From NCBI RefSeq assembly GCF_013122565.1, contig NZ_CP053258.1: a stretch of DNA of 64,000 bases; one strand, written 5' to 3'. The notes beneath the pieces are model-generated. The model made no database searches and was not told the origin of the DNA. It saw only the letters and a list, made by a program, of their open reading frames with translations. The DNA comes from Escherichia coli (lineage in GTDB: Bacteria > Pseudomonadota > Gammaproteobacteria > Enterobacterales > Enterobacteriaceae). Positions 24,053-55,202 of this stretch are shown piece after piece. A program made the position numbers and the translations under genes. How positions within the stretch are numbered: position 1 is the first letter of the stretch; each line of letters opens with the position of its first letter.

Positions 24053-24068
24053 TGTTTCGGACATATTA

Positions 24069-37437: not shown

Positions 37438-37439
37438 GA

Positions 37440-40298
37440 TTAACCCTCCGCTCCGGTGATAACAGCAATTACCTGAATGTAGGGTTCTTTTTCAGTCGTC
37501 ATGGTGTCCTCAATCCATTCGATATAGCTGTCAAAATTGTGTTCGATTTCGCGTTGTCTCTGCTCTTTACGGCTCTGCTTGACTGACAATTGCTGTTTGT
37601 TATCGGCAAAATCCAGCTCAAGTTGGCTCAACTGCCGCCCACGCAAAACGTCCAGCTTTTGCAGATGCTCGTTCAGTTGCTGGTTAATGTGCGTTTCAAA
37701 CGCATTCCGATCATGGATAAATACCTCCCGGGCATGCGCAATAGCCGCTTCCAGTAAATCCTGCTGGCGCTGGTGATTACGATCTTTACCGCCGCTGTTA
37801 GTCAGATTGTTACTCAACTGCGGATGACGTTGTAAAAACTCAGCGAATGGCTGACTGCCGATTAGCGATTCACGGTCAAAGCTCACCACTATCCACGGGT
37901 TCACCATCGGATGTGATTTACGGTTCGGGAATAACCCGGAAAGAATGAAGTGATCTTCATCGGGTTCAAGCAGGTATGGCAGACGGATAACCGGTGCCTG
38001 ATGACGACCAAAAGCCGAAGAGATTTTATCGTCCAGCCACTGCACTACCGGGTTGATTTGCCAGAGATACTGCACATCGGGCCAGGCATGTTGCTCACCG
38101 CGAGCGCGCGCAATCGCGTCGGTGATGACGGTTTTATCCTGACTTAAATAGAGCTGCCAGTTCTCCGGGGCAATTTCAGGCGGTAGCTGGTTGAAGCGGC
38201 GGCGTAACTCCTCCGGTGCCACCAGCGACAAGGTATTATCAGGCAAGGTTTCATACTGGATAGTTTGACCACTGGCTTTCAGGTAACCCAATGCTCTTTC
38301 ACAGTACGCCTGTTCGCTGGCAAACAAGCTGGTGTCTGTTTCGGTAACCATTGAGGCATCGCTGGAAACCGCACTGCATATTTCGCCAAACAGATCATGT
38401 TCGGCGCTTTCCGAGACGTTGCTGTTCAGCAGTTGATCAAACAGGCTGGCACCATCATCCTGCATCATGAACTCTGCAACCTGCTCTTCTTCCTCTTCCT
38501 GGGTAAATTTGCCGGTAAACTCCGAACTGTCCCCAATGTTCTTCTGCGCCTGTTCGTCTTTGTTGATCAACACTTCCAGTACGCGCATATCGCCATTGAT
38601 CTGTGGTTCGCTGGCCTCGGTAAGCAGATAGCGGATTTGAGGCTGATGTTTTTGCCCATAGCGGTCAATACGCCCGTTACGTTGCTGGAATACCATCAAC
38701 GACCACGGAATATCAAAGTGAATCATTTTGTGGCTAAGGTGATGCAAGTTGATCCCTTCAGATGCCACATCCGAACAAACCAGAAGACGCAACGGAGACT
38801 GCGTTTTACCAAAGGCTTCTACGGTTTCCATCAATACCGTATCGCCCTGATCGCCGCGCAGCGTGGCGATCTGGTCATCTTTCAATTTCAGATCCGCTCG
38901 CAGTTGCTGTTCGAGGAACTCCAGCGTTTTAATACTTTCGGTGAAGATCACCAGGCGATCTTCCGTGTTATTGGCTTTCCAGGCGAGGTCTTTTCGGATG
39001 GTGTCGAGCAGCAACTGGTATTTGCTAAACTGGCTGGCATCAATGTTATTCAGCGCCAACAGCAATGACTCCAGTTCGTTGATCTGGCTCTGGCTATTAT
39101 GATCTTTACGGCTCTCAAGACGCTTCAGACGATTCGCCACTACGCTGGCACACGCCATCGGGCTGGAAAATAGCGCTTTTTCGAGGGTTATCTTGAACAG
39201 ACGACCTTTGTTAGACTGGGCCTGTTCATCGTCATCATCACGGAACTGGCTCTCAACCAGGCGACGGTATGCTTCTTCTTCGGCACCAGATGCCAGGCGA
39301 GTCAGTTTGACAATATTGCGCTCGGGGAACTCGCCGGACATCTGATCTTTCACGTCTTTTTTGAAGCGACGGACAACCAGATTTTTATCGGCAAAATCGG
39401 CGTATTCATACTCTTTCGGGTTGGCGATCGCCGTCGGGTCAAGCATGTTCATCAGGCTGGCAAAACTTTCAGCCTTACCATCATGCGGTGTTGCTGAAAG
39501 CATAATCAGCGTATCGCTGCGCCCGGCGAGCAGTTTTGCCAGTTTACTGCGTAACGAACTGGTTCCACGTTCTGCGACGTTATGGGCCTCATCAATGACA
39601 ATAATATCCCACCAGGCATTTTCCAGATGGTGACGATATTCAATGTCTTGTTTCAGCGTATCGATGGAGATAATGGTCTTGTCAAAATAGTGGAACGGGT
39701 TGTGGTTGGTTGGGATGCGGTTACGCACCTTTTGTAAACCAGCAGAATCCAGGCGGGTCAATGGGATCGCAAAACGGCTCCAGAACTCCTTCTGGAATTG
39801 TGTCAGCATCGATTTAACCGCCAGAACCAGAATACGTTTTCCGCGCCCACGACGGATCAGTTCCGAAACCAGAATACCGGCTTCCAGCGTTTTACCCAGA
39901 CCGACAGCGTCGGCAATGAGTATCCGCTGGCGCGGTTGTGCCAGCGCCATCCGCGTAGGATCGAGCTGAAACGGCATGGAATCCATCGCCGCCAGATGAC
40001 CAAAATGGACTTTACTGTCTGTCGGTACGCGTTGGCGTAACTGACTTTCAATATACAACTGTGCCGCTTGATAATTGGCGGATTCATCTTCCACCAAATG
40101 CGTTTTTGCGGGATCAAGGATCTCTACTTTTTGTTCCAGTTTGGTCAGAAATAACCCTTCTTTACCGCGCACCAGCTCTGAAATACCATCGCAGGTCAGC
40201 AAATACCCACCATCACCACTGTCATCCGCCCGGCGAATACGCCATTCGGCATCACGAATAACCACCCGCATACCAGGTGCATAATTTTGCTTATTCAT
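37440..40298 (-). CDS. SNF2-family helicase/ATPase (DrmD-like)
   Basis: 952 aa; Walker A DAVGLGKTLEAG, DEAH-box IVIDEAHN, helicase C motifs (HFDIPWSLMVFQQRNGRIDRYGQ). Confidence 0.8.
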   Translation of the reverse strand: MNKQNYAPGMRVVIRDAEWRIRRADDSGDGGYLLTCDGISELVRGKEGLFLTKLEQKVEILDPAKTHLVEDESANYQAAQLYIESQLRQRVPTDSKVHFGHLAAMDSMPFQLDPTRMALAQPRQRILIADAVGLGKTLEAGILVSELIRRGRGKRILVLAVKSMLTQFQKEFWSRFAIPLTRLDSAGLQKVRNRIPTNHNPFHYFDKTIISIDTLKQDIEYRHHLENAWWDIIVIDEAHNVAERGTSSLRSKLAKLLAGRSDTLIMLSATPHDGKAESFASLMNMLDPTAIANPKEYEYADFADKNLVVRRFKKDVKDQMSGEFPERNIVKLTRLASGAEEEAYRRLVESQFRDDDDEQAQSNKGRLFKITLEKALFSSPMACASVVANRLKRLESRKDHNSQSQINELESLLLALNNIDASQFSKYQLLLDTIRKDLAWKANNTEDRLVIFTESIKTLEFLEQQLRADLKLKDDQIATLRGDQGDTVLMETVEAFGKTQSPLRLLVCSDVASEGINLHHLSHKMIHFDIPWSLMVFQQRNGRIDRYGQKHQPQIRYLLTEASEPQINGDMRVLEVLINKDEQAQKNIGDSSEFTGKFTQEEEEEQVAEFMMQDDGASLFDQLLNSNVSESAEHDLFGEICSAVSSDASMVTETDTSLFASEQAYCERALGYLKASGQTIQYETLPDNTLSLVAPEELRRRFNQLPPEIAPENWQLYLSQDKTVITDAIARARGEQHAWPDVQYLWQINPVVQWLDDKISSAFGRHQAPVIRLPYLLEPDEDHFILSGLFPNRKSHPMVNPWIVVSFDRESLIGSQPFAEFLQRHPQLSNNLTNSGGKDRNHQRQQDLLEAAIAHAREVFIHDRNAFETHINQQLNEHLQKLDVLRGRQLSQLELDFADNKQQLSVKQSRKEQRQREIEHNFDSYIEWIEDTMTTEKEPYIQVIAVITGAEG

Positions 40299-40488
40299 CG
40301 GTTTTTCTGTCTATTTGGGGCAGTGGCGGTAACGTCATCCTGAAAAATGTGGCGCGGCACACTGCGATAAAAAAGAGGGCCTTAAAGATATCATGAAGGC
40401 CCCCGGCAAAGTGACAAAATGGGAGGGAATGCGCATAAATTGCGCATGATTTTCAAACAAAAATTATTAAAAAGTGAGCTGGGTCAAC

Positions 40489-40514
40489 TCCCCTGGAAGA
40501 TATCCCCAGGGGAG
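40489..40514 (-). terminator. stem-loop between druE and the DISARM-like operon
   Basis: ctcccctgg / ccaggggag 9-bp inverted repeat 8 nt past the druE stop; a T-rich stretch follows about 15 nt later on the transcribed strand. Confidence 0.4.
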
Positions 40515-40521
40515 CAATTAT

Positions 40522-43500
40522 TTATCCAGCGATAACATAACTCCTAAGGTCATTACCCGGGGCAACAGCTCGCGATCGCGTGTTTGCCAGCCGTTCAACT
40601 TGCTGCGGTACTCGCAGAGCAAAATCAAATAAGGTGTCTTCAATACAGCGCCAGTAGCTAAGCCCCATGTCGAGCAGGACATAATGCTGACTGCCATCGC
40701 TGAAGGTGACTGTCAGTTCTCGTCCATGCTCCGTACTCTGGTTATCCCCCGTTAACCAGCTAATTGCTCCCGGCCACGCAGGCCCCAGATATCCTTCTTC
40801 AAGTAAAGTGGTCACAACCTGCTGACGATCTTCCTCATTAAGCCACGCGTTATAGAGAGCGTCGTGTTGGCGAGAGTTGTAATCCAATTTTTTGACGCAA
40901 ACAGTGAGGCTGGCGCGTTCCGCCATTCCCTGTTCAACCAGCTCGGTTAAGATTTCACCTAACAAACGCGCCGTGAATGGGCTATTAAGATAACGATCGC
41001 TGTACTCAACATGCGTTATCTCTTTGTGGCGGGTAAATGCCTGCTTCCAGCCAGCGTGCTGTTGCGTGACTAACGACCAGAAACGCGAACCAAAACCTTC
41101 CAGCGGCCCGTCCAGTTGTTCACAGAGATTGATGCGCACCGCCCCGGTGGGTAAGGCGGGCAGTAAATCTTCTGCACTTAAGGTCTGACCCGAGAAGGTT
41201 TTTCCGGACGTTCCTTTAAGTGTCACTACTGGTGAAGACGCACTTTGTCCCCATAATTCACCAGGGGCAACGGTAGCGCTGTCGTCTGCGGCCCACTGTT
41301 GGCTTTGCCCTTCGCGAGTCACCTGCGCAAGCCAGCGCCCCTTTCCTTGCATGAGTTGCGCAGTGGCAATGGATTTCACTTGTAAGCGTCCTCCCGGCAT
41401 CGCCGCCAACGCGGAAAGCTGATGTCTGGAGCTATCAGTTAAGTTTTCCAGCGGCGTGGCCACCAGCAACTCAACATTCCCACCGGAGGAAGCAAACTGG
41501 AGCAACTCTTTAAATAATGGCCATTGGGCAAAGTCCCACTGTTCCTGCGGCCCCGCAAGAACCAGCGAGCAGGAGTCATAAATCTCGCTGTTCAGGCATT
41601 GCGCAATACGTAAACTCAGAGGGTTAGTTTCAACCCGGCTACCATCGCCGAAGTACTGATATTCTGGCGCGAGGTTAAGTCGCTGCAACCGTACATTGGT
41701 AAGCAGGGTTAATGCATGGTGACGATCTAATCTGTTGACATAATGCTGACTGTCGTAGCTGAGCAAGCAGTGGTGACAGAATTTATCGCAACTGCAATCG
41801 AGCAATTTTCTGGCGTAATTAAAGACATCAGCCCAATGGTCGATCAATTGCACTGCATAACCTGCACCACCCGCATTATTGTCGTAAATGAAGATGGAAT
41901 ATCCGGTATAGCCATTGATATCGCGCGCTTGCTGCGTCGTCACGCCCAGCTCAGTATTTTCGATACCCAATTTATGCGCTAACCCTTCACGCAAAGCGAC
42001 CGCAAGGGAACGCGCGGCAACCTCATCACGGATCAACAGGCCATTATCATCATTGAGTTGCAGCTCAACCATATCTGTACGACTGCTATACCCCAACCAC
42101 AGATCTTTATGCACATGACCGTGGCACAATTTATTGCTCCCCTGACGATCGTTACTGCCCCCTCGCAACAGGTAATGCGTATTTTCCCGCTCTGGGTTCT
42201 TTAGATTTTCAGGGGTACGCTGGGGTTGAGTTTGAGATTCTGCCCGACCACATGAGAGGCAAATTGCGTAGCCGTGCCCAAATTCCCCTTCACTGAAGTG
42301 GAACAATTCCCCACTATGGCTAAAACGGTAACGTCCTAGCCCAGCATCGGGTAAAGAAACCCACACCGAAGACGGTACAAGAACACGTGGATCTTTCCAG
42401 GGAAGTTGTGCAGGCATGGATACATCATTATGTGCCTGATAACGAATATCTGTCGCAAAACCAACAGGCTGTAAATAACGCTTCACATCAAGTTGCTGTA
42501 TATCCGCTTTGCAGTGACTACATTCGACAGGACGGGTAGTACTGGTTGCCCCCGCACCACATTTACGGCAATGCCAGAACCACGGAATATGATGATCGCC
42601 TGACAGCTCCTGCCCGCTGGCAAGTACCTTGCCAAGCATAATGCCCGAGGAACGATATACTTTTCCGCCCAATACCACATCTGCACCAGGCGCATACTCG
42701 CGTAATGCTGTAGGTAGATCACGGCTGGGCAATTTTTCAATACGACGAGAAAAGCTTTCTCCCCCTTCATTAGGGTCAGCCTGAGTGGCTTTTATTGCGC
42801 GACGTTTTTCCAGCTCATCTGCCGTCAGATAATTGAAATTGACTACGCCAACCGGGAAACCATGCCCCGGCAGGAACGCTTCACTAATGAGTTTAGAAAA
42901 CAGATATGCACCGCGATAATCACGAAGCTGATAAGCGATGGCTTTACCTGCTGGCGTTTCTTCCCACGCGCTGTTATCCGCCTTCAACGCTTCGATATTT
43001 TCCAACAGTATCGCAAGTTGGCTTCTCCAGCGGATATCAACCTGCTGCATCATTGCTTGTGTGCGGGTCAAGAGCTGGGTTGCCGTCAATGACATCAGGA
43101 CGGTTCCCTGAGTAAGGCGTTTAAGTTTATCCGCCAGCTGATCGGCCTGGTGATTTAACCAATGGAGAAAACGAAGACACTGGCTCTCATCACCTTCAAA
43201 GAACCATTTGCAACTCAGTTTTGTCGCATCAGGAACTTCAGCTCGTAAAAACAGACCTAAAACCAGGGCATTAACATGTCGTTGAACAATGCTACTGCTC
43301 CCAAAACGAACCCGTGGCGCACTGGCAGTAGTGTTGAACGCCCAGAGGGGGTCTTTGAATACCTCCATTCCATGCGCCGTGTTTTTACATAACGTAATGG
43401 CAGCAGATGCACTCTCTCCACGACGCCCCGCGCGACCTGCACGTTGCAAATAATTTGCCGGCGCTGGAGGAACGTTGTTCATTGCCACCAAACTCATACC

Positions 43501-46500
43501 ACCAATATCCACCCCCATCTCCATGGTCGTGGAACAGTTCAGCACATTAACTTTGCCTGACTTAAATTGTTTTTCATTAAACTGGTTCTGCTCAGGCGTT
43601 CTCTGCGCAGAGTGTTCCTCCAGACGATACCAGCTATCTTTCAGGGCCAGTCGGTCGCTGCGAGTAGACCATAATCCTTCCTCGCGGGCATGTTGAATCA
43701 GCGCATTACTTTCCAGCCACTCCAGACGTTCTTCTCGGGCGATTTCTCCACCACCAGACAAACGCCAGTGACGTACAGGAAGCTCAGGCATTTCAATCAA
43801 CACTGCTTTTTCAGGTGCAATTTCTTTGCTACCCGGCAAATACGGAGAGTATCCCAGCAACGTGACGTCTAACGCACGTCGAGTATAGGGGCAACGCCAC
43901 ACTTGCTTTGGACTGTAAAATTCAGCTTGTTGTTTAATATCCAGCTGATAACCCGACTCAAACTGACGTAAGCAGGGTCGAATTGCATCCCAGACCTCAA
44001 TCATTAAGTGGTTAACTAACGATTTCCAGTGAGCCTGCTCAGGTTGTATTGCCGGAAAGACTGCGATTAATAGCTTAATGACCCGGTTATAATGGCGATC
44101 GCGTATTTGTGGCCAAAGTTGATCACGTTTCTGCCCTTTGTTTTTTTTATCTGGCCCCTGGAGCATTTTTACCGGGAAACGTGCCCCCATCCAGCGAGGG
44201 TATTGCTCGTTTTCGTAAAAAACGGCACTGTTTTCACGGATAAAGAAATCAAGAGTAATCTTCAATAAATTACGCCATTCCGCTAATTGCTTATCGGGAT
44301 CGGGTAATAATGTCTTCCAGTCCTGCGGGCAGGTTGTAACTTTATCAATAAATGGATAGTGAATGGCTACCAGACCCAGACTTTCGAGGGTCCAGGCATT
44401 TTTAGGGCGGCGACCAAACTCGCTGTATAAACAAAAATCTGCAAACTGTTGTTTAGTAAGATCAAGCCCAGACAATTCTTTAAAACTGCCTCTCATTCTA
44501 TCGGCAAGGTCCACACTGCCAACCAGCTGTTCAGACAGCGTTTGCCATGACATGGTTTTCTTCTGCTGATTGCCAGAGTTAGCCTGAAGTATTTGCATCG
44601 CTTCAGCATGATCCGGGCTTAAGGAACTCACCATCGGCTCAATAATTTTAAGTGCCTGAATGTCCGCCGGGCTAAGCTCCTCATTCGCAGCCATCGCTTT
44701 TTTCAGCGCGTCGATGGAATTTTTTAAAGGGAGGACAGAAAACTGGCTAATAACTTTCTCTAACAGTGCACAGTGTGCCGGGCTGAGTTTTGCTGAAGGC
44801 TCTGTAATATTTGCCAGCTCCTGGTAACAAAGAGCTCGCAACGTCGCTTTATCGGCATCCTGCTGTAAGCGAGCTGAAATGCGAGCGGTACCCTGACGCG
44901 AATCCGTAAAGGTGAGCAAGCGTCGACCATTAAACGGTCCTAACTGCTCTTCTCTTGTTTGCGGTAATGGAGAAAACTCCAGCAGAGTAGGAATAATTTC
45001 ATTTAAAAAAAAGGGCGCGCCGAGCCGAAGCGGACGGAATAAAGGATTATTTTTCCGTTGAGTGTCACCACAGCACACACAAGCAAAGGAGTTATTGCGT
45101 CCCTCACCTCGAGATTCCGGTCTTAACAGGTTTATTTCATAGTGCTTTTGCGCTTCACTATCAATTTTCCCCGCCGTCGTTTCTTCCAGTGAAATGATAT
45201 ATTTTTCACCATCGCTCGCAATCAGACGATCAAATTGAGAGTTATTGTCTAATTCGTCGTTGTCTTCATCTTCAGAATAAACATCTACATCAAGAGCAAA
45301 CTCATCCACTTCGGCAGCGGCGGGTTGCGCTACCAACCAGTTCGTTCCATCACCGCGCATCTCCTCTTTGGCAGACAAATAAGCTGAACCACACCCGGAG
45401 CAACGTAAAACTTCAAATACCGGCGCACCACAGTCACAATATTGGCGCTGCTCAAACCATACCTGACCAAATGGCCAGTCACTCTGATTTAATTCATGTG
45501 CTTTATGTGAGCATTGTTTGTTTGAACATGCCCATAGACCCGCCAGTGTTCTGATAAACCCATGCATACGTAATGGCGTAAAAGCCAGTTCACCTTCTCG
45601 CGATCTTGCCATTAGATCGAGGAGTTGCAGTAGCTCACGGTGATTAATATCTGGCCAGGTTCTTCTGGCAACATTGAGCAACTCACTCAAACGTACTGCC
45701 TGCCGTCCGGGATGAGTTAACGCCTGACGCAATTGCTGGGCCACACGGTAATGACAAAGCTGTTGGTAAAGATCCTGAGGGCTCAGGGATTTAAGAGAAG
45801 TTAAAGATGTGGGGTATTCATGACGAATCAGCGACTCCGATACCCGCGGTATTTGTCGATAACCGCGAACCACTTTGACATCACGTTCTGTAACGCCCGC
45901 GAGATCAGCGACAAATTTAGCAAGCTCCTTATTACCTTCAGGAGAGTCTTCACCAATAGTGGCAGAGGTCGCGATAATCTGCACAGGTTTATCTGTGCCG
46001 GGTCCAACATTGAAAGCCTGCATAACACGACGTAAAAGCAGCGCTAACTCAGCAGCCTGAGAACCAATATAACTATGGGCTTCATCCAGGACGATATACT
46101 TTAACATCCCCTGAGACTTTTCGATGATTGGGGCATCTTTACGACGAATCAGCATATATTCCAGCATGGTGGTATTCGTCACCATGATGGAAGGTGGTGC
46201 TTCATAAATGGCTTCCCGACTCAAAGCTTGTTCAGGTACTTTCAACTGATCTTCCTGAATTTCGTATTTGGTATGCCGGGTTTCGCCATTATATAGCGCG
46301 AAGCGTATTTTCCCCTTAAATCCGCGCGTCCATTCGCGAAGCCGCTCCTGTTGGCTGTTAATTAATGCATTTAACGGATACAAGAAAATAGCTTGTGTCC
46401 CTGTTAGTGACTGGCGGGTCGATTTTTGCTGACGAATAAGATCTTCCAGAACAGGTACCATAAAGCATTCTGTTTTCCCGGATCCCGTACCGCTGCTCAC

Positions 46501-46845
46501 TAACAAGGATTTTTTGTCTTCCAGAATCGTTCGCCACGCAGTGAGTTGATGACGAAATGGCACTGGCGCTTTGCTCAATGCATCAACCAGCGGGCTGGAG
46601 ATCAGCTTGTCCCGCAAATCCTCCATTGTTTCATCCGCAGGCATCCAGCCGAATGTACTTTCGAATACCGGGTCTGCAAGCAGTGACCCCTCCTGACCGG
46701 GAGGCTGAAAATATTGTGATTCCAGATAATGAGTCAACGACTTGCTCCGCAATGCCAACTGACTTACCACCGACCTCACCGCACGCTGATGAAGCTGATT
46801 TAGAAGTGGCGCATAATGCAGTTGCTGAACGTCCATCAATGACAT
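40522..46845 (-). CDS. druE: Druantia DruE: giant helicase with Zn-ribbon/DUF1998-like region
   Basis: 2107 aa; Walker A GTGSGKTECF, DEAH motif VLDEAH, helicase C region QRAGRAGRRGE, CxxC clusters; paralogous to the 2113-aa protein at 26180..32521. Confidence 0.8.
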   Translation of the reverse strand: MSLMDVQQLHYAPLLNQLHQRAVRSVVSQLALRSKSLTHYLESQYFQPPGQEGSLLADPVFESTFGWMPADETMEDLRDKLISSPLVDALSKAPVPFRHQLTAWRTILEDKKSLLVSSGTGSGKTECFMVPVLEDLIRQQKSTRQSLTGTQAIFLYPLNALINSQQERLREWTRGFKGKIRFALYNGETRHTKYEIQEDQLKVPEQALSREAIYEAPPSIMVTNTTMLEYMLIRRKDAPIIEKSQGMLKYIVLDEAHSYIGSQAAELALLLRRVMQAFNVGPGTDKPVQIIATSATIGEDSPEGNKELAKFVADLAGVTERDVKVVRGYRQIPRVSESLIRHEYPTSLTSLKSLSPQDLYQQLCHYRVAQQLRQALTHPGRQAVRLSELLNVARRTWPDINHRELLQLLDLMARSREGELAFTPLRMHGFIRTLAGLWACSNKQCSHKAHELNQSDWPFGQVWFEQRQYCDCGAPVFEVLRCSGCGSAYLSAKEEMRGDGTNWLVAQPAAAEVDEFALDVDVYSEDEDNDELDNNSQFDRLIASDGEKYIISLEETTAGKIDSEAQKHYEINLLRPESRGEGRNNSFACVCCGDTQRKNNPLFRPLRLGAPFFLNEIIPTLLEFSPLPQTREEQLGPFNGRRLLTFTDSRQGTARISARLQQDADKATLRALCYQELANITEPSAKLSPAHCALLEKVISQFSVLPLKNSIDALKKAMAANEELSPADIQALKIIEPMVSSLSPDHAEAMQILQANSGNQQKKTMSWQTLSEQLVGSVDLADRMRGSFKELSGLDLTKQQFADFCLYSEFGRRPKNAWTLESLGLVAIHYPFIDKVTTCPQDWKTLLPDPDKQLAEWRNLLKITLDFFIRENSAVFYENEQYPRWMGARFPVKMLQGPDKKNKGQKRDQLWPQIRDRHYNRVIKLLIAVFPAIQPEQAHWKSLVNHLMIEVWDAIRPCLRQFESGYQLDIKQQAEFYSPKQVWRCPYTRRALDVTLLGYSPYLPGSKEIAPEKAVLIEMPELPVRHWRLSGGGEIAREERLEWLESNALIQHAREEGLWSTRSDRLALKDSWYRLEEHSAQRTPEQNQFNEKQFKSGKVNVLNCSTTMEMGVDIGGMSLVAMNNVPPAPANYLQRAGRAGRRGESASAAITLCKNTAHGMEVFKDPLWAFNTTASAPRVRFGSSSIVQRHVNALVLGLFLRAEVPDATKLSCKWFFEGDESQCLRFLHWLNHQADQLADKLKRLTQGTVLMSLTATQLLTRTQAMMQQVDIRWRSQLAILLENIEALKADNSAWEETPAGKAIAYQLRDYRGAYLFSKLISEAFLPGHGFPVGVVNFNYLTADELEKRRAIKATQADPNEGGESFSRRIEKLPSRDLPTALREYAPGADVVLGGKVYRSSGIMLGKVLASGQELSGDHHIPWFWHCRKCGAGATSTTRPVECSHCKADIQQLDVKRYLQPVGFATDIRYQAHNDVSMPAQLPWKDPRVLVPSSVWVSLPDAGLGRYRFSHSGELFHFSEGEFGHGYAICLSCGRAESQTQPQRTPENLKNPERENTHYLLRGGSNDRQGSNKLCHGHVHKDLWLGYSSRTDMVELQLNDDNGLLIRDEVAARSLAVALREGLAHKLGIENTELGVTTQQARDINGYTGYSIFIYDNNAGGAGYAVQLIDHWADVFNYARKLLDCSCDKFCHHCLLSYDSQHYVNRLDRHHALTLLTNVRLQRLNLAPEYQYFGDGSRVETNPLSLRIAQCLNSEIYDSCSLVLAGPQEQWDFAQWPLFKELLQFASSGGNVELLVATPLENLTDSSRHQLSALAAMPGGRLQVKSIATAQLMQGKGRWLAQVTREGQSQQWAADDSATVAPGELWGQSASSPVVTLKGTSGKTFSGQTLSAEDLLPALPTGAVRINLCEQLDGPLEGFGSRFWSLVTQQHAGWKQAFTRHKEITHVEYSDRYLNSPFTARLLGEILTELVEQGMAERASLTVCVKKLDYNSRQHDALYNAWLNEEDRQQVVTTLLEEGYLGPAWPGAISWLTGDNQSTEHGRELTVTFSDGSQHYVLLDMGLSYWRCIEDTLFDFALRVPQQVERLANTRSRAVAPGNDLRSYVIAG

Positions 46846-49800
46846 ACTCCTGCTTGTTCAAAATAATATTGATAGATTACCCCTAATTGCTGTGGGGCTT
46901 GCTGATAGTGAAATTCAAAAAGCGCAGACAGTTGATGTATCAGGTTATTATCTTTTTGGGTTAACAGCGCTGCGACTAACATCAAATTAAAACGTTTTTC
47001 AAGCCGTGAGTGATATTTATCTTCAATCCAAAGCTTATTAAAAACAGATTTTAACTCTGGAGTAATAGCACTGGACCAAAGTTCTTTAGGGAAGATACTG
47101 ATACGCCCAAAGCTGTCGGGGTTCCTTAATAGCATCTGTTTAGCTTCATTAAACTGCTCACGACTAACAGTTGGCAATACATCACAACCGGTTGGTAGGC
47201 TCTCACTATATGTAAGTAACATATTCGCAATGGGAGCCAGCCGACGATCGATATGTGCACGATGGTTCATAAAAGCAATAAAGGGTCGCAATATATGTAA
47301 TGCTAATGTTTTATCGTTAATCTGTTTTTCCAGATAAGTCCAACATTTTTGGAAAACATCTTTCCAGATTGAAACGGGAATCCATCCCCATGAAAAGGGT
47401 AATTCTTCCTGTATATCATAAATCGTATCGCTATCACCAGAAAGACATGATGATATTAACAATTGAACAACCACGCGGTAATTACTCGAAATACATCTGA
47501 ACAAGTCCAGATCCAGCAAGGATAAGCCATTATTCATTTTGTATTTCTTAATATACTCTGTTAATAAACAGCAATAATTTTGCAATGGGTTGTTATCTAT
47601 TTCAAAAATTAGCTCATTAAAATTTTTTTTGCGCTGTTCTGGGTCTGCTTCGCATAGAGCATTTAGTAATAAATCATTTGTCTGTAATACAGGTAGCATC
47701 CATTTAATTACTGGTGCAATGCGAGCTGTACCATCCAGTTTTCCCACAATTAACCATGGACTATCCTGAACATTCAGAGCTGAAAGATCATAAGCAAACT
47801 CATCTTTTTTTAACAATGATATGTGTAAGCCAGGATTCTTAAGAGAAATAGCATCAACAACCAGTTCGTCTATTCTATTTGCAGGAAAAACAACAGAATT
47901 TTTTATATCAACCAGTAACCCTTGATCGTGTTCAATAAAACTACCATCGTAGCGTTTAATATTGAGTGTTGCTTTATCCTTTCCAAATCTGTCAGAGTAA
48001 AAATCAACACATAATGTACTATTGCTGTTCCATGCACATGCCAGCATAGCATTTAGCAAATTATAGTTCTCATAAAGTGAAATTTGTTGTAATTTGTCAT
48101 TGCGTCCTGATAAAAGAGGAAGGTCGGCATGTAAATAACGGAATTTTTCAGCTACTGGATTTTCATCGAATAACTCGATATTAAGATATCCTCTTCCAGC
48201 ACATGATATGGTTAATAACTCAGCATCTATTCCATGCAAATGTGCTATAGATGCCACACCATCAAAATGAACAGAACCATCATTAGTTACAAATCGGCCA
48301 CCGCTAACCGGCTTAGGTAATAATAGTTTAAGATTAGAACCATCTTTCCAGGAGACCCGTAAATCAACGGTATTTTCCAGCATCTGCGATGAATTATAAT
48401 AAATAGCACACTCGTTTTGTGAATAATCGGACTTAAGTGTTACTTTTTCATTGTTTGAATATTTATCAATTCTAGTATCCGTTATACCAGAAAGTATAAT
48501 AATGCCTTGCTGAGCACTCTCAGGTATAATATTAATATCGAAGTCTGCTGGTAAAACTACAACTTTACCGCTAAATAAAACCTCATCATTAACTATTCGC
48601 CGGACTTCTATCTGTCCTTTTGGCATTTCTGATGCGACAGAATACCAGGCATTGTTACCTGAACGAATGGAACGCCAAAAAAGTTCTTTCTCCGGTACAA
48701 TGCCATATTGTAGATCCTTTTTCCAACCGATCTTCGGCCAGGCTCGATGGACAGGATAATCCGATTTAACCAGTTCAACTTCTGTCGATTTAATATAATA
48801 TTCAATTGCAGAATCATAAAGTTGCTGGGTGCGAATTGTACAAACAGCACCATCATGTAAAACAACGCTAAATACTCCACTTATTTTAGTTAAGCTGCGT
48901 TCACTGTTTTTCAGCAACCTTGGGATATCAAACTCACCTTCTCCACTAATATCTAAATGGCTATTTTTCGGTAGCGAAATAAACAGAGCATTTAGCCTGG
49001 AACTCACAGACCCCATACCAACAAGTTTTAGCTGCGATTCACTCTCATTCATCGCTTCAAAAACCCAGGGAAGTTCTTCAGTAAGTTCATAACCGCCTTT
49101 TGGAATTGTGTGACCTAACAGAATTGGACCTTCATGAAGCGACAATGAGATTTCGGCCATTGCATCTGCACCAGAGAGTTTTTGCATCGCAATAGGTAAT
49201 AACTCGACCCGCCAATCTTGCTGCTCATAACGGCTTAGCATTGCCAACCTTGCCCCGCCATTTTTCCATTTTCCTGAAATGATGAGTCGGGTCTGCTCCG
49301 GCTGAATATGGCATTCAAACAAAGAGGTTAACTGTTCTGTACGCATTGTGGCCGGGAATCGGAACCGGGCATCGCAATACCAACTGTCATCAACATCGAC
49401 CCAGATTCTTTCAACCTGAAGACTACTTGCACTGCGTATTTCAGAAGATTGAGAAAGTAATCGCCTTACAATCTCTGCAGCATTCGCTTCGGGGAGAACG
49501 AGTGGAAGTTGAAGATGCCAGTCTGGAGAGAGCTTACGTAATGCAGAAACGGGATCACTGCTTTGAGGAGGATGCTCACTAAGTAATCGGCAGAGAGTCT
49601 CGCAGAATTCACCGGCTATTTCATAGACCAGTTCGTTTTGCATTGTGACAGGAATCGTATCGCCTAATTCTTGTGCAATTTTAGCGGCAGGATATTGAGA
49701 TGATTGCCCACGAAGCGCCTGATATATCCTTCTGAAATAGGTAATCAAATAACCGCTCTCATTTTCAATCATGCGGATAGGTAAACCACCTTCACAAGCC

Positions 49801-50195
49801 AGTGTATGCAGATAACCCGAAGCTTGCCCCAGGTTTCTTATCTTTCTTTTCCAGTAGCGAATGCCATCATTAACCAGCTTCTGTCGATGAACATACGGAA
49901 CTTTCCAGTTAATAGAATCTAAAATTGTGTCCCATTTAGGGTGTCCGACCGTATGAGTTCGGCGGATAAACTCTGCGGCATATATGCTAAATAGAACATC
50001 GCTATAGGAAATGAATATCGTTCTTGGATAACTACGGGGGGCATATGTACGCAGTAGTTCTGCCAAACTTTCGTACTCTGTATCAGTACAACGGTAAGCA
50101 TATAACGCCCGTCCATCAGCTCCGGATAATGAACGGCGACTAAAAAACATGTTAAGCCATTGCAAAAGTGGGTTAACTGGAGTTTTCACAAGCAA
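46836..50195 (-). CDS. druH: Druantia type III DruH-like protein (no recognisable catalytic motif)
   Basis: 1119-aa AT-rich ORF immediately upstream of druE with 10-nt overlap; TTG start preceded by AAGGAAGG; assignment is by size and position. Confidence 0.6.
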   Translation of the reverse strand: MLVKTPVNPLLQWLNMFFSRRSLSGADGRALYAYRCTDTEYESLAELLRTYAPRSYPRTIFISYSDVLFSIYAAEFIRRTHTVGHPKWDTILDSINWKVPYVHRQKLVNDGIRYWKRKIRNLGQASGYLHTLACEGGLPIRMIENESGYLITYFRRIYQALRGQSSQYPAAKIAQELGDTIPVTMQNELVYEIAGEFCETLCRLLSEHPPQSSDPVSALRKLSPDWHLQLPLVLPEANAAEIVRRLLSQSSEIRSASSLQVERIWVDVDDSWYCDARFRFPATMRTEQLTSLFECHIQPEQTRLIISGKWKNGGARLAMLSRYEQQDWRVELLPIAMQKLSGADAMAEISLSLHEGPILLGHTIPKGGYELTEELPWVFEAMNESESQLKLVGMGSVSSRLNALFISLPKNSHLDISGEGEFDIPRLLKNSERSLTKISGVFSVVLHDGAVCTIRTQQLYDSAIEYYIKSTEVELVKSDYPVHRAWPKIGWKKDLQYGIVPEKELFWRSIRSGNNAWYSVASEMPKGQIEVRRIVNDEVLFSGKVVVLPADFDINIIPESAQQGIIILSGITDTRIDKYSNNEKVTLKSDYSQNECAIYYNSSQMLENTVDLRVSWKDGSNLKLLLPKPVSGGRFVTNDGSVHFDGVASIAHLHGIDAELLTISCAGRGYLNIELFDENPVAEKFRYLHADLPLLSGRNDKLQQISLYENYNLLNAMLACAWNSNSTLCVDFYSDRFGKDKATLNIKRYDGSFIEHDQGLLVDIKNSVVFPANRIDELVVDAISLKNPGLHISLLKKDEFAYDLSALNVQDSPWLIVGKLDGTARIAPVIKWMLPVLQTNDLLLNALCEADPEQRKKNFNELIFEIDNNPLQNYCCLLTEYIKKYKMNNGLSLLDLDLFRCISSNYRVVVQLLISSCLSGDSDTIYDIQEELPFSWGWIPVSIWKDVFQKCWTYLEKQINDKTLALHILRPFIAFMNHRAHIDRRLAPIANMLLTYSESLPTGCDVLPTVSREQFNEAKQMLLRNPDSFGRISIFPKELWSSAITPELKSVFNKLWIEDKYHSRLEKRFNLMLVAALLTQKDNNLIHQLSALFEFHYQQAPQQLGVIYQYYFEQAGVCH

Positions 50196-50406
50196 CCTGC
50201 CTTCCTTTGATACAATTCGTAACAGGTTACTATCATCATAAAAAAGCTCAACCCGATGAACTCGCTAAAAATGAGACAAATCATTTATATCTCGAAAAAA
50301 CTTGTTACAATCATGAGCGCTACACCGAACTTAACCATATAAATTATGTGTGTTTTGTTTATTTTTTAAACGATTACAACTATCCATTATTTACACAGGT
50401 ATCAAA

Positions 50407-52059
50407 ATGTTAGCGCAGCTTTTTGAGCAGTTGTTTCAATCGATAGACTCTACACTGATCACCAATATTTTCATCTGGGCTGTTATATTCGTATTTTTAT
50501 CAGCGTGGTGGTGTGACAAAAAAAATATACATAGTAAGTTTAGAGAATATGCTCCAACCTTAATGGGGGCATTAGGTATTCTGGGTACTTTCATTGGTAT
50601 TATTATTGGTTTACTCAATTTTAATACCGAAAGTATTGATACCAGCATCCCCGTATTATTAGGTGGCCTAAAAACAGCATTCATTACAAGCATTGTAGGT
50701 ATGTTTTTTGCCATTTTATTTAATGGAATGGATGCTTTCTTTTTTGCCAATAAACGAAGTGCGTTAGCAGAAAATAACCCTGAATCTGTTACACCTGAAC
50801 ATATCTATCATGAATTAAAAGAGCAGAACCAGACTCTGACTAAATTAGTCTCGGGTGTTAACGGTGATAGTGAAGGTTCTCTTATTGCTCAAATAAAATT
50901 ACTACGTACTGAGATTAGCGATTCTTCGCAGGCACAATTAGCTAATCACACTCATTTCAGTAATAAGCTTTGGGAACAACTTGAACAATTTGCAGATCTA
51001 ATGGCAAAAGGTGCTACAGAACAAATTATTGATGCTTTGCGACAAGTTATTATTGATTTTAATGAAAATTTAACTGAACAGTTTGGTGAAAACTTTAAAG
51101 CACTTGATGCCTCTGTAAAAAAACTTGTTGAGTGGCAGGGAAATTATAAAACGCAAGTTGAGCAGATGTCAGAACAGTATCAACAAAGTGTCGAGTCCCT
51201 GGTTGAAACAAAAACTGCGGTTGCAGGGATTTGGGAAGAATGTAAAGAAATTCCTCTGGCTATGTCTGAACTGCGTGAAGTGCTTCAGGTGAACCAACAT
51301 CAAATCAGCGAACTCTCCCGCCATTTAGAAACCTTTGTCGCCATCCGCGATAAAGCAACAACCGTATTACCTGAAATACAGAACAAAATGGCTGAAGTGG
51401 GTGAACTGCTGAAATCCGGAGCTGCAAATGTTAGTGCATCTCTTGAGCAAACCAGCCAGCAAATACTTCTTAATGCAGATTCAATGCGCGTGGCCCTGGA
51501 TGAAGGTACCGAAGGATTCAGACAATCGGTTACCCAAACACAACAAGCATTTGCCTCGATGGCACATGATGTCAGCAATTCCTCCGAAACCCTAACCAGC
51601 ACGTTAGGTGAAACAATTACTGAAATGAAACAAAGTGGTGAAGAATTCCTGAAATCACTAGAGTCGCACTCGAAAGAATTGCATAGAAATATGGAACAAA
51701 ATACTACGAATGTGATTGATATGTTCAGTAAGACTGGTGAAAAGATTAACCATCAACTATCCAGTAATGCCGATAATATGTTTGATTCAATCCAGACATC
51801 ATTTGATAAGGCAAGTGCAGGGTTGACTTCTCAAGTCAGAGAATCAATTGAAAAATTTGCTCTATCCATCAACGAGCAGTTACATGCTTTTGAGCAAGCA
51901 ACTGAACGTGAAATGAACCGTGAAATGCAATCATTAGGTAATGCTCTGCTTTCAATCAGCAAAGGTTTTGTCGGTAACTATGAAAAACTTATTAAAGATT
52001 ACCAAATAGTTATGGGGCAGTTACAAGCATTAATTTCTGCTAATAAACATCGCGGGTAA
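50407..52059 (+). CDS. zorA: Zorya ZorA: MotA/ExbB/TolQ-like channel with long coiled-coil tail
   Basis: ORF 50350..52059; preferred start ATG at 50407 (MLAQLFEQ); N-terminal TM helices, then about 400 aa of E/Q/L-rich predicted coiled coil. Confidence 0.8.
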   Translation: MLAQLFEQLFQSIDSTLITNIFIWAVIFVFLSAWWCDKKNIHSKFREYAPTLMGALGILGTFIGIIIGLLNFNTESIDTSIPVLLGGLKTAFITSIVGMFFAILFNGMDAFFFANKRSALAENNPESVTPEHIYHELKEQNQTLTKLVSGVNGDSEGSLIAQIKLLRTEISDSSQAQLANHTHFSNKLWEQLEQFADLMAKGATEQIIDALRQVIIDFNENLTEQFGENFKALDASVKKLVEWQGNYKTQVEQMSEQYQQSVESLVETKTAVAGIWEECKEIPLAMSELREVLQVNQHQISELSRHLETFVAIRDKATTVLPEIQNKMAEVGELLKSGAANVSASLEQTSQQILLNADSMRVALDEGTEGFRQSVTQTQQAFASMAHDVSNSSETLTSTLGETITEMKQSGEEFLKSLESHSKELHRNMEQNTTNVIDMFSKTGEKINHQLSSNADNMFDSIQTSFDKASAGLTSQVRESIEKFALSINEQLHAFEQATEREMNREMQSLGNALLSISKGFVGNYEKLIKDYQIVMGQLQALISANKHRG

Positions 52060-52065
52060 TCGATC

Positions 52066-52773
52066 ATGGATAAGATTATAGGGAAACAATTACCTAAAAA
52101 AGATCAAGATAATGAACATTGGGTATCCATGTCAGACCTAATGGCAGGGCTGATGATGGTTTTTATGTTCATATCTATTGCTTATATGCACTACGTACGT
52201 ATTGAAAAAGAAAAAATTAAAGAAGTTGCCGTAGCCTACGAGAATGCTCAGTTACAGCTTTATAATGCTCTGGATATTGAGTTTGCAAAGGATTTACAAG
52301 ACTGGGATGCAGAGATCGATAAACAGACTCTGGAGGTTCGATTTAAATCACCGGATGTTTTATTTGGCTTAGGAAGCACAGAGCTAAAACCAAAGTTTAA
52401 ACTCATTCTTGACGACTTTTTTCCTCGCTACCTAAAAGTTCTAGATAATTATCAGGAACATATTACTGAAGTCCGCATTGAAGGTCACACAAGTACTGAC
52501 TGGACAGGAACAACGAATCCTGATATTGCTTATTTTAATAATATGGCACTATCACAAGGTCGTACACGTGCAGTATTACAATACGTTTATGACATAAAAA
52601 ATATCGCGACACACCAACAATGGGTTAAAAGTAAATTTGCCGCAGTAGGTTATTCATCTGCACATCCCATTCTTGATAAAACCGGCAAGGAGGATCCTAA
52701 TCGCTCTCGTCGTGTCACCTTCAAAGTTGTAACAAATGCCGAGTTGCAGATTAGAAAGATTATTCAGGAGTAA
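52066..52773 (+). CDS. zorB: Zorya ZorB: MotB/OmpA-like peptidoglycan-binding partner
   Basis: 235 aa; single N-terminal TM (LMAGLMMVFMFISIAYM), C-terminal OmpA-like domain (NMALSQGRTRAVLQYV); starts 6 nt after zorA. Confidence 0.8.
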   Translation: MDKIIGKQLPKKDQDNEHWVSMSDLMAGLMMVFMFISIAYMHYVRIEKEKIKEVAVAYENAQLQLYNALDIEFAKDLQDWDAEIDKQTLEVRFKSPDVLFGLGSTELKPKFKLILDDFFPRYLKVLDNYQEHITEVRIEGHTSTDWTGTTNPDIAYFNNMALSQGRTRAVLQYVYDIKNIATHQQWVKSKFAAVGYSSAHPILDKTGKEDPNRSRRVTFKVVTNAELQIRKIIQE

Positions 52774-52776
52774 GAG

Positions 52777-53880
52777 ATGAAATTATCTATCGACATTTCA
52801 GAACTTATTCAATTAGGGAAGAAAATGTTACCAGAAGGAGTCGATTTTTTTCTGGATGAATCCCCTATTGACTTTGATCCTATAGATATTGAGTTATCAA
52901 CGGGTAAAGAAGTTAGTATCGAAGATCTTGACCCTGGTAGCGGGCTTATCTCTTATCATGGCCGCCAGGTTCTTTTATATATTCGGGACCATTCAGGGCG
53001 TTATGATGCGGCTATCGTAGATGGCGAAAAAGGAAAACGTTTTCATATTGCCTGGTGCAGAACTCTTGATGAAATGCGCCATAAAAATCGATTTGAAAGG
53101 TATCATGCAACTAACCGCATAGATGGTTTATTCGAAATTGATGATGGTTCAGGTCGGAGCCAGGATGTTGATTTACGGGTATGTATGAATTGCCTCGAAC
53201 GGCTTAATTATAAAGGAAGTATTGATAAACAAAGAAAAAGAGAGATTTTTAAATCATTCTCATTAAATGAGTTTTTTTCAGATTATAGTACCTGTTTTCG
53301 TCATATGCCTAAGGGTATCTATGACAAAACAAATAGTGGGTATGTCGAAAACTGGAAGGAAATATCTAAAGAAATACGAGAAAAGGCAAATTATGTTTGT
53401 AATGATTGTGGCGTGAATTTATCAACCGCCAAAAACTTGTGCCATGTCCATCATAAAAATGGCATCAAATATGATAATCACCATGAAAACCTTCTTGTTC
53501 TGTGCAAGGATTGCCATCGAAAACAGCCCCTCCACGAAGGTATATTCGTTACCCAAGCAGAGATGGCTATCATTCAACGTTTACGTTCCCAACAAGGGTT
53601 ATTAAAAGCAGAATCCTGGAATGAAATATATGACCTGACTGATCCATCAGTGCATGGTGATATTAATATGATGCAACATAAAGGCTTTCAACCTCCTGTT
53701 CCTGGGTTAGATCTTCAAAACTCAGAACATGAAATTATTGCAACCGTAGAAGCTGCATGGCCAGGCCTTAAAATTGCAGTTAACCTTACTCCCGCCGAAG
53801 TCGAAGGATGGAGAATATATACCGTGGGTGAGCTGGTTAAAGAAATACAAACCGGAGCCTTTACGCCAGCAAAATTGTAA
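52777..53880 (+). CDS. zorE: Zorya type II ZorE: HNH endonuclease domain protein
   Basis: 367 aa; HNH-type Cys/His motif CNDCGVNLSTAKNLCHVHHKNG...NHHENLLVLCKDCH; 3 nt after zorB. Confidence 0.8.
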   Translation: MKLSIDISELIQLGKKMLPEGVDFFLDESPIDFDPIDIELSTGKEVSIEDLDPGSGLISYHGRQVLLYIRDHSGRYDAAIVDGEKGKRFHIAWCRTLDEMRHKNRFERYHATNRIDGLFEIDDGSGRSQDVDLRVCMNCLERLNYKGSIDKQRKREIFKSFSLNEFFSDYSTCFRHMPKGIYDKTNSGYVENWKEISKEIREKANYVCNDCGVNLSTAKNLCHVHHKNGIKYDNHHENLLVLCKDCHRKQPLHEGIFVTQAEMAIIQRLRSQQGLLKAESWNEIYDLTDPSVHGDINMMQHKGFQPPVPGLDLQNSEHEIIATVEAAWPGLKIAVNLTPAEVEGWRIYTVGELVKEIQTGAFTPAKL

Positions 53881-53891
53881 ATTCTAAAACT

Positions 53892-53915
53892 CCGTGAAAG
53901 TTAAGACTTTCACGG
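53892..53915 (+). terminator. stem-loop after zorE
   Basis: ccgtgaaagt / actttcacgg 10-bp inverted repeat with 4-nt loop, 11 nt after the stop; following tract is A-rich not U-rich. Confidence 0.4.
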
Positions 53916-55197: not shown

Positions 55198-55202
55198 CGC
55201 TT

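What the first reader, a model, noticed from the sequence alone, without database searches (positions are those of the whole stretch)
40522..50195. Druantia type III (druH-druE) with TTG start and overlapping genes
A 1119-aa protein with no recognisable domains lies immediately upstream of a 2107-aa helicase/DUF1998-like protein with a 10-nt overlap, which is the Druantia type III architecture. druH appears to start at a TTG with a strong AAGGAAGG SD, and the pair is AT-rich relative to flanking core genes. DruH function is unknown.
Basis: partly seen in the sequence, partly recalled or inferred. Interest (0 to 1): 0.6.

Follow-up and report, generated by a model that had tools for sequence, protein, structure and literature searches.

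The report
Known Druantia III anti-phage operon
This is an intact copy of the two-gene Druantia type III anti-phage system (druH-druE) of E. coli, about 99.5% identical to copies that have been deleted, cloned, purified and solved by cryo-EM, so it is real but already known.

Summary
Both ORFs exist exactly as described. PADLOC models identify them without ambiguity: DruH3 at 2549 bits and DruE3 at 2182 bits, both full length. The 10.1-kb stretch is 99.5% identical to E. coli O157:H7 and is present in 546 of 5426 complete E. coli genomes. Near-identical proteins have solved structures, PDB 9tud and 9tu7-9tuc.

The pair sits between a divergent Zorya II operon and a downstream ARMADA II operon. 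This is the published O-island-172-type defence array.

- **druE start.** It is almost certainly the ATG at 46836, giving a TGATG junction with a 1-nt overlap and a 2104-aa protein. The ATG at 46845 (10-nt overlap) is unlikely.
- **druH start.** The TTG at 50195 is not conserved in relatives. The in-frame GTG at 50189 is the family-level N-terminus, so TTG versus GTG remains open.

Only druH is clearly AT-rich (39% GC, against 49% for druE), and the flanks are other defence systems, not core genes.

"DruH function unknown" is out of date. Five 2026 papers describe DNA binding or processing by DruH and 3'-to-5' helicase activity by DruE, although they disagree on nuclease activity. Verdict: already known, low interest.

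The parts
46836..50195 (-). druH (YjiT / STY4851-ECs_5259 family). It is 1119 aa from TTG 50195, or 1117 aa from the in-frame GTG 50189. The stop codon is TGA at 46838-46836.
   Evidence: ORF. PADLOC DruH3 PDLC00041, 2549 bits, residues 3-1119 aligned to profile 1-1117. NCBIfam NF038336, 983 bits. PDB 9tud is near-identical. It differs by 6 aa from O157:H7 strain PA20. The ssDNA/ATP pocket residues Y670, N672, H689, Y733, D735, R1031, H1062, R1064 and K1067 are all present (residues taken).
40522..46836 (-). druE, a YprA/MrfA-like SF2 helicase. It is 2104 aa from ATG 46836; the maximal ORF from ATG 46845 gives 2107 aa.
   Evidence: ORF. PADLOC DruE3 PDLC00037, 2182 bits, full length. Pfam DEAD at 98-298, Helicase_C at 1072-1143, and MZB at about 1615-1694. 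PDB 9tu7-9tuc. It differs by 8 aa from O157 PA20. All 25 published functional residues checked are present in 2104-aa numbering, including G118, G120, K121, D251, E252, R1135, R1138, R1258, R1372, C1681, C1683, C1687 and R2075.
50200..50207 (-). Shine-Dalgarno-like AAGGAAGG upstream of druH. It is 4 nt from TTG 50195 and 10 nt from GTG 50189. A second AGG (50198-50196) lies 6 nt from the GTG.
   Evidence: Sequence read directly. The AGG-N6-GTG arrangement recurs in Pectobacterium locus L002.
46834..46851 (-). druH-druE junction: AGGAG-N10-ATG, with TGATG stop/start overlap. This fits translational coupling.
   Evidence: Sequence. The same AGGAG-N10-ATG occurs in Pectobacterium. The other loci have junctions from -8 to +11 nt.
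40487..40515 (-). 12-bp GC-rich hairpin 7 nt after the druE stop codon, within the 223-bp druE-armA spacer. It could be a terminator or an RNA-stabilising element, but the T-run is not adjacent.
   Evidence: RNA fold: -21.2 kcal/mol, z = -2.3. The terminator scan flagged only a smaller overlapping hairpin.
50196..50406 (.). Divergent druH / zorA intergenic region of 211 bp, AT-rich, presumed to hold both promoters.
   Evidence: PGAP places the zorA2 start at the position equivalent to window 50407. PADLOC ZorA2 aligns from residue 20 of the maximal ORF. The promoter-like matches are consensus-level only.
50407..53880 (+). Context: Zorya type II operon zorA2-zorB2-zorE, divergent from druHE.
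   Evidence: PADLOC ZorA2 1001 bits, ZorB2 346 bits, ZorE2 586 bits. PGAP names.
24069..40298 (-). Context: ARMADA type II operon armA-armB-armC-armD, downstream of and co-directional with druHE. The genes are an SNF2/BrxHII-like helicase (952 aa), a PglX/type IIG-like methyltransferase (1638 aa), a YprA-like helicase (2113 aa) and a GajB/UvrD-like helicase (704 aa).
   Evidence: PADLOC hits. The O157 neighbour WP_000937974.1 is the ARMADA type II representative named in PMC12458937. The gene order matches the published description.

Best explanation
This is an intact, functional-looking type III (subtype III-A) Druantia operon, druH-druE. It lies in the conserved E. coli defence array Zorya II - Druantia III - ARMADA II.

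**Most likely mechanism**, transferred from near-identical E. coli systems. It is a direct, non-abortive defence that targets DNA.
- DruE is a dimeric YprA/MrfA-type SF2 helicase. [quoted passage not shown] It binds single-stranded DNA in a pocket between Ig5 and the C-terminal domain, and ATP competes for that pocket.
- Together the two proteins immobilise or process the phage DNA, which is then cleared. Clearance is by nuclease activity of the DruE PLD-like domains and/or DruH, or by partner nucleases such as ZorE or RecBCD.

**What is shown here:** gene identity, intactness, conserved functional residues, operon anatomy and genomic context.

**What is inferred from the literature:** all biochemistry and the phage-protection phenotype.

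**Translation:** druE is most likely translated from the ATG at 46836, coupled to the druH stop codon (TGATG). druH starts at TTG 50195 or GTG 50189.
For: - **Family assignment:** PADLOC DruH3 2549 bits and DruE3 2182 bits, both full length. NCBIfam YjiT_fam 983 bits against a cut-off of 150. DEAD, Helicase_C and MZB domains.
- **Identity to studied systems:** 99.5% nucleotide identity to O157:H7 over 10.1 kb, present in 546 of 5426 genomes. Only 6 and 8 amino-acid differences from strain PA20. Near-identical solved structures.
- **Functional residues:** all published DruH pocket residues and DruE helicase, Zn, ssDNA-contact and assembly residues are conserved.
- **Architecture:** 9 of 9 loci across 21-100% DruH identity have a YjiT-family gene immediately followed by a 2000-2138-aa DEAD-YjiV_N-Helicase_C-MZB gene.
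- **Function in near-identical systems:**
  - Deleting druHE sensitises EDL933 and ATCC 8739, and cloned druHE protects MG1655 without abortive infection.
  - DruE is a 3'-to-5' helicase on 3'-tailed or forked DNA.
  - DruH binds ssDNA and ATP competes.
Against: The final step is contested in the literature.
- Hu et al. found no DruH nuclease activity.
- Himpich et al. found no reproducible DruE nuclease activity and report that the PLD domains are dispensable.
- Wu et al. report DruE cleavage of long DNA, loss of defence with R1258A, and nicking by dimeric DruH.
- Loeff et al. report a 3'-5' exonuclease DruH and a PLD-nuclease DruE in the Pseudomonas system.

Nothing in this window tests expression or activity. 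No PLD domain is detected by Pfam in the C-terminal half; its presence is inferred from identity to the solved protein.
Confidence: 0.95

Rival explanations
1. Same system, nuclease-centred mechanism. DruH is a 3'-5' ssDNA exonuclease that trims forked DNA to leave 5' overhangs. It then recruits DruE through its C-terminal domain, splitting the autoinhibited DruE dimer into a 1:1 DruE-DruH complex. The PLD nuclease of that complex degrades both strands.
For: This was shown for the Pseudomonas aeruginosa system. Wu et al. report nuclease activities for E. coli DruE and for dimeric DruH, and loss of defence with R1258A. In the window protein, R29, R35 and E75 are invariant in the N-terminal alignment. 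Their spacing resembles PaDruH R22, K28 and E64, but this is my inference; no alignment to PaDruH was made.
Against: Two groups working on E. coli proteins about 99% identical to this one found no DruH nuclease activity and no reproducible DruE nuclease activity, with the PLD domains dispensable. No stable DruE-DruH complex was seen in vitro for the E. coli proteins.
Confidence: 0.4
2. DruE is mainly a housekeeping 'motility-regulating DEAH-box RNA helicase', as PGAP names it in some genomes, and not a defence protein.
For: PGAP product name in records H1 and H2. [quoted passage not shown]
Against: Himpich et al. found no effect of a druE deletion on fliC mRNA or on motility in EDL933. The protein unwinds DNA and is required for phage defence. 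It is always paired with DruH and sits in defence islands.
Confidence: 0.03
3. The operon is a decaying or silenced relic, like the truncated yjiT and yjiV genes of E. coli K-12, and has no activity in this strain.
For: druH and its promoter region are AT-rich (39% GC), the kind of DNA that H-NS silences (general knowledge). The Pfam families are named after K-12 YjiT and YjiV.
Against: Both reading frames are full length against the HMMs and the solved structures. All functional residues tested are intact. There are only 47 nucleotide differences from O157 over 10.1 kb, and none is in the intergenic parts. The native loci in EDL933 and ATCC 8739 are active.
Confidence: 0.03

Closest known systems
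Druantia type III-A of E. coli (EDL933 Z5897/Z5898 on O-island 172; ATCC 8739; NCTC 12923; ECOR19)
   Same: [quoted passage not shown] Nucleotide identity is 99.5%, with 6 and 8 amino-acid differences from an O157:H7 copy. All published functional residues are identical.
   Different: Chromosomal context. Here the array lies directly between uxuA and nanM, with no tRNA or integrase in the window. Only 9 of 5426 complete E. coli genomes share that junction. In O157 the array lies in OI-172, next to an integrase and tRNA-Leu.
Pseudomonas aeruginosa type III Druantia (PaDruH/PaDruE; Loeff, Chanez and Jinek 2026)
   Same: Same two-gene architecture. DruH has helical, six Ig-like and helical domains. 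DruE has a helicase core, DUF1998/MZB and PLD-like domains.
   Different: It is a distant orthologue and was not retrieved among the 43 homologues found. It protects against T-even phages and shows clear nuclease activities, whereas the E. coli system reportedly does not protect against Tevenvirinae/Tequatrovirus phages and its nuclease activity is disputed.
ARMADA type II ArmC, the paralogous YprA-family helicase 14 kb downstream in the same window
   Same: A YprA/MrfA-like SF2 helicase of similar size (2113 aa). It hits the DruE models at 347 bits and shares a 39-nt stretch at 87% identity with druE, at about the Walker A codons.
   Different: It is paired with an SNF2 helicase, a methyltransferase and a UvrD-like helicase, not with DruH. 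Its C-terminus matches the ZorE-type HNH model, not the PLD-like domains reported for DruE.
DISARM class 1 (DrmA/DrmB/DrmC) and Bacillus subtilis MrfA/YprA
   Same: The helicase core plus the MZB/DUF1998 zinc module. The best non-Druantia solved structure by sequence is YprA, PDB 6znp. DruE resembles a DrmA-DrmB-DrmC fusion.
   Different: There is no methyltransferase in the Druantia pair, and immunity does not depend on host methylation. DISARM is reported to unwind in the opposite direction.
E. coli K-12 YjiT / YjiV (immigration control region)
   Same: The Pfam families YjiT_N, YjiT_2nd and YjiV_N that cover DruH and DruE homologues are named after these proteins. Wu et al. place DruH in the YjiT family.
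   Different: From my own knowledge, not tested here: the K-12 genes are truncated or pseudogenised remnants at another locus. The pair in this window is full length.

Membership tests
Druantia type III | DruE: a very large (about 2000 aa) YprA/MrfA-like SF2 helicase with a DEAH motif and a DUF1998/MZB zinc module | tested here: met
   PADLOC DruE3, 2182 bits, full length. Pfam DEAD, Helicase_C and MZB. GSGKT and DEAH motifs present.
Druantia type III | DruH (YjiT family, about 1100 aa) encoded immediately upstream of druE on the same strand | tested here: met
   PADLOC DruH3, 2549 bits. NCBIfam NF038336, 983 bits. The genes abut or overlap at 46836-46845.
Druantia type III | No type I (DruA-D) or type II (DruM/F/G) accessory genes | tested here: met
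   By PADLOC the neighbours are ZorA2/B2/E2 and the ARMADA II proteins. No DruA-D or DruM/F/G model is among the hits shown.
Druantia subtype III-A | DruE carries two C-terminal PLD-like domains | tested here: inconclusive
   No PLD family was detected by Pfam in residues 1001-2107. The domains are inferred from near-identity to E. coli DruE, for which the PLD domains are described.
Druantia type III | Both genes are required for protection against phage | not testable with these tools
   Shown for near-identical E. coli systems. Not shown for this copy.
Zorya II - Druantia III - ARMADA II defence array (OI-172 type) | zorABE divergent from druHE, and armABCD downstream and co-directional | tested here: met
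   Gene order and PADLOC hits match the O157 annotation and the published description.

The most novel reading that the evidence does not exclude
Within one operon, composition steps sharply at the druH-druE junction: 39% versus 49% GC, and GC3 31% versus 46%. The same sign is seen in three other loci whose DruH is 34-63% identical to this one (Pectobacterium and two metagenomic contigs), but not in five more distant loci. The most novel reading is that, in this clade, druH is exchanged by recombination as a sensor cassette independently of druE, breaking at or near the coupled TGATG junction. druH may travel with the equally AT-rich Zorya II genes. That would make this locus a natural test of how specificity modules are swapped between helicase-based defence systems. 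A lesser possibility is that druH is initiated at both TTG 50195 and GTG 50189.
Probability: 0.2. Interest if true: 0.35.

Novelty: already known. Interest (0 to 1): 0.1.

Why it matters
As a discovery it matters little. The locus is a textbook copy of a defence system that has been dissected genetically, biochemically and structurally in near-identical E. coli strains. The whole three-system array around it has also been published.

Its practical value is for annotation.
- It fixes the druE start at the TGATG junction.
- It shows that the TTG start PGAP uses for druH is not supported by comparison with relatives.
- It flags the misleading PGAP product name 'motility-regulating DEAH-box RNA helicase'.

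The real open question is how DNA unwinding leads to phage clearance, and whether DruH or the DruE PLD domains act as nucleases. This sequence cannot answer that.

Tried and rejected
- **Variation within E. coli to settle the druH start:** the 500-bp start region is at least 99% identical in 512 of 514 genomes, so it is uninformative.
- **Mapping the PaDruH residues R22, K28, E64 and E220:** none of the 43 retrieved homologues has that residue pattern at those positions, so no PaDruH-like sequence was available. I offer only a spacing-based guess (R29, R35, E75).
- **druH always more AT-rich than druE as a family rule:** rejected. The difference is about zero in five distant loci.
- **Structured RNAs, tRNAs or att-like repeats bounding the island:** there are no Rfam hits at gathering score, no tRNAs, and no convincing flanking direct repeats.
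- **A canonical intrinsic terminator after druE:** there is only a strong hairpin without an adjacent T-run.
- **Promoter scan:** 27 sites found against 17 ± 4.7 expected in AT-rich DNA, which is not informative.
- **Structure prediction and fold search:** not run, because experimental structures of near-identical proteins exist.
Full report

One is 46836..50195 on the minus strand (1119 aa, TTG start). The other is 40522..46845 on the minus strand (2107 aa, ATG start). As maximal ORFs they share 10 nt. Frames of this length do not arise by chance, and both match curated models with E = 0. The motif AAGGAAGG lies at 50207-50200, 4 nt upstream of the TTG.

**2. What is it?**

- **druH.** The upstream protein matches PADLOC DruH3 (PDLC00041) at 2549 bits over its whole length. 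Only DruH models hit it. It also matches NCBIfam NF038336, 'STY4851/ECs_5259 (YjiT) family', at 983 bits against a cut-off of 150.
- **druE.** The downstream protein matches DruE3 (PDLC00037) at 2182 bits, full length. It carries Pfam DEAD, Helicase_C and MZB (formerly DUF1998) domains.
- **Pfam coverage of DruH.** The local Pfam library finds nothing significant in DruH. The precomputed hits of a newer release list PF27201 YjiT_N and PF27205 YjiT_2nd for its homologues, and PF27116 YjiV_N for DruE homologues.
- **Distribution.** The 10.1-kb stretch is 99.5% identical to E. coli O157:H7 and O145 chromosomes. It occurs in 546 of 5426 complete E. coli genomes.
- **Divergence from a studied copy.** Against O157:H7 strain PA20 there are 47 nucleotide differences, giving 6 amino-acid changes in DruH and 8 in DruE.
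- **Solved structures.** Structures of near-identical proteins are in the PDB: 9tud for DruH and 9tu7-9tuc for DruE.

**3. Surroundings**

Divergently upstream lies a complete Zorya type II operon, with ZorA2, ZorB2 and ZorE2 at 1001, 346 and 586 bits. Immediately downstream and co-directional are four genes:
- an SNF2/BrxHII-like helicase;
- a PglX/type IIG-like methyltransferase;
- a second YprA-like helicase of 2113 aa;
- a GajB/UvrD-like helicase.

This is ARMADA type II. The O157 orthologue of the 2113-aa protein, WP_000937974.1, is the ARMADA II representative named in PMC12458937.

The whole nine-gene array is the published defence island of O-island 172 in EHEC EDL933 (z5894-z5902). 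It co-occurs in hundreds of E. coli strains.

In this window the array sits directly between uxuA and nanM. That junction is shared by only 9 complete genomes. The window has no tRNA.

**4. Start codons and the overlap**

*druE.* The GGAG Shine-Dalgarno sequence is 1 nt from ATG 46845 but 10 nt from the in-frame ATG 46836. The latter overlaps the druH TGA stop as TGATG.
- In Pectobacterium polaris the upstream ATG is a TTG, while AGGAG-N10-ATG and the TGATG overlap are conserved.
- Seven other loci have junctions ranging from an 8-nt overlap to an 11-nt gap.
- PGAP annotates the 2104-aa form. Hu et al. state 2104 residues.
- The published residue numbers K121, D251/E252, R1135 and C1681/1683/1687 fall on the right residues only in 2104-aa numbering.

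So the real overlap is most likely 1 nt, a classic translational-coupling junction, and not 10 nt.

*druH.* The TTG at 50195 is followed two codons later by an in-frame GTG at 50189.
- The strong AAGGAAGG favours the TTG by spacing (4-5 nt against 10-11 nt).
- An AGG lies 6 nt before the GTG, and the same AGG-N6-GTG occurs in Pectobacterium. There the two upstream codons are CTA CTC, so no TTG start exists.
- Homologues at 33-49% identity begin at the position of residue 3 or 5. One of them (L003) has no possible start codon upstream before a stop.
- The PADLOC model begins at residue 3.
- Gene callers and laboratories disagree. PGAP and Hu et al. use 1119 aa. The Himpich/Wahl construct, read from the NcoI cloning and from the PDB 9tud sequence (ME at residues 3-4 of a 1119-residue chain), fits a GA + 1117-aa form.

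I regard GTG 50189 as slightly more likely on comparative grounds. The 2-residue difference is unlikely to matter functionally, and only N-terminal proteomics can settle it.

**5. Composition**

druH is 39.4% GC (GC3 31%). druE is 48.9% (GC3 46%), close to the window mean of 47.7%. Zorya II is 37-38% and ARMADA II is 50-53%.

The statement 'the pair is AT-rich relative to flanking core genes' therefore holds only for druH, and the flanks are not core genes. The step at the druH-druE junction recurs in three other loci whose DruH is 34-63% identical (L002-L004). It vanishes in five more distant loci, so it is a feature of this clade and not a family rule.

**6. How it works**

Nothing in a sequence window can show activity. 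I therefore tested whether the residues shown to matter in near-identical proteins are present.

- **DruH.** The ssDNA/ATP pocket residues are all present: Y670, N672, H689, Y733, D735, R1031, H1062, R1064 and K1067 (residues).
- **DruE.** The helicase motif, zinc-cluster, ssDNA-contact and assembly residues are all present (residues).

The literature agrees on these points.
- The system is a direct, non-abortive defence that needs both genes.
- DruE is a dimeric 3'-to-5' helicase that loads on exposed ssDNA, 3'-tailed or forked DNA.

The literature disagrees on the effector step.
- Hu et al. see ssDNA binding by DruH, competed by ATP, and no nuclease activity.
- Himpich et al. see no reproducible DruE nuclease activity and find the PLD domains dispensable.
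- Wu et al. report DruE cleavage of long DNA, an R1258A defect, nicking by dimeric DruH, and dependence on RecBCD.
- Loeff et al., working with the Pseudomonas system, report that DruH is a 3'-5' exonuclease. It recruits DruE into a 1:1 complex whose PLD nuclease degrades forked DNA.

My committed reading is as follows. The system senses ssDNA-containing phage replication or recombination intermediates. DruE then unwinds them with ATP, DruH engages the single-stranded product, and the DNA is cleared. Whether the nuclease is intrinsic or borrowed remains unresolved; I put the intrinsic-nuclease model at about 0.4.

**7. Comparison with what is known, and novelty**

Every defining feature of Druantia type III that can be tested by sequence is met. 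Subtype III-A (C-terminal PLD-like domains) is supported only through identity to the solved protein, because Pfam detects no PLD domain.

The locus is an already known system in an already described island. 'DruH function is unknown' was fair until 2025, but five 2026 papers have overtaken it. Interest is therefore low. The only residual curiosities are the unresolved druH start, the compositional step inside the operon, and the unusual chromosomal placement of the array.

Noticed in passing
window 46836 (druH-druE junction); L002-L009: GC content steps sharply inside the operon: druH 39.4% (GC3 31%) against druE 48.9% (GC3 46%). The same sign is seen in three other loci whose DruH is 34-63% identical (largest in L004: 43% against 56%), but the difference is about zero in five distant loci. 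This suggests a clade-specific mosaic origin or separate exchange of druH.
   Followed up: partly
window 24069-40298 (-): A complete ARMADA type II operon (armA-D) lies directly downstream of druE. It was not part of the finding. ArmC (2113 aa) is a paralogue of DruE and hits the DruE models at 347 bits.
   Followed up: partly
window 26180-26440 (ArmC C-terminus) and 53730-53763 (zorE): ArmC residues 2021-2096 match the ZorE2 HNH endonuclease model (E = 6e-9). The DNA shows a 34-nt inverted match at 71% to the 3' end of zorE, so two systems of the island carry related HNH modules.
   Followed up: no
window 50407-53880 (+): A complete Zorya type II operon (zorA2, zorB2, zorE) is divergent from druH. 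The maximal zorA ORF (GTG 50350, 569 aa) is probably 19 codons too long: PGAP and the PADLOC model both start at the position equivalent to 50407.
   Followed up: partly
window 21694-24068 and 53881-56242: The defence array lies directly between uxuA and nanM-nanS. Only 9 of 5426 complete E. coli genomes share the uxuA-armD junction. From my own knowledge of the K-12 gene order, nanC, the fim operon and gntP normally lie between these genes; none appears between uxuA and nanM here. The 1.15-kb spacer 22915-24068 has no ORF over 102 aa.
   Followed up: partly
E. coli records H1 and H2, equivalent to window 40522-46836: PGAP names DruE a 'motility-regulating DEAH-box RNA helicase' in some recent genomes. 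Himpich et al. found no effect of a druE deletion on fliC mRNA or motility in EDL933, so the product name is probably misleading.
   Followed up: partly
window 32172-32210 and 46454-46492: A 39-nt direct repeat at 87% identity lies between armC and druE. It falls at about the Walker A (GTGSGKTE) codons of the two paralogous helicases, which is unusually high nucleotide conservation for proteins that are otherwise distant.
   Followed up: no
window 40487-40515 (-): A 12-bp GC-rich hairpin (-21.2 kcal/mol, z = -2.3) lies 7 nt after the druE stop codon, in the 223-bp spacer before armA. There is no adjacent T-run, so it is not a canonical intrinsic terminator.
   Followed up: partly
window 2909-12877 (+): An AT-rich patch (39-40% GC at 2001-6000) encodes a 720-aa pentapeptide-repeat protein. 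It is followed by two ORFs with no NCBIfam hit and a 1746-aa inverse-autotransporter adhesin (intimin/invasin family, IatC-like N-terminus at 1127 bits, below that model's cut-off). These lie between the yjiL/yjiM-like genes and kptA.
   Followed up: no
window 57278-62849 (-): A run of minus-strand ORFs with no NCBIfam hit surrounds a RadC-family gene (60338-60811). This is typical of cryptic-prophage or integrative-element cargo and may be the remnant of the mobile element that brought the island.
   Followed up: no
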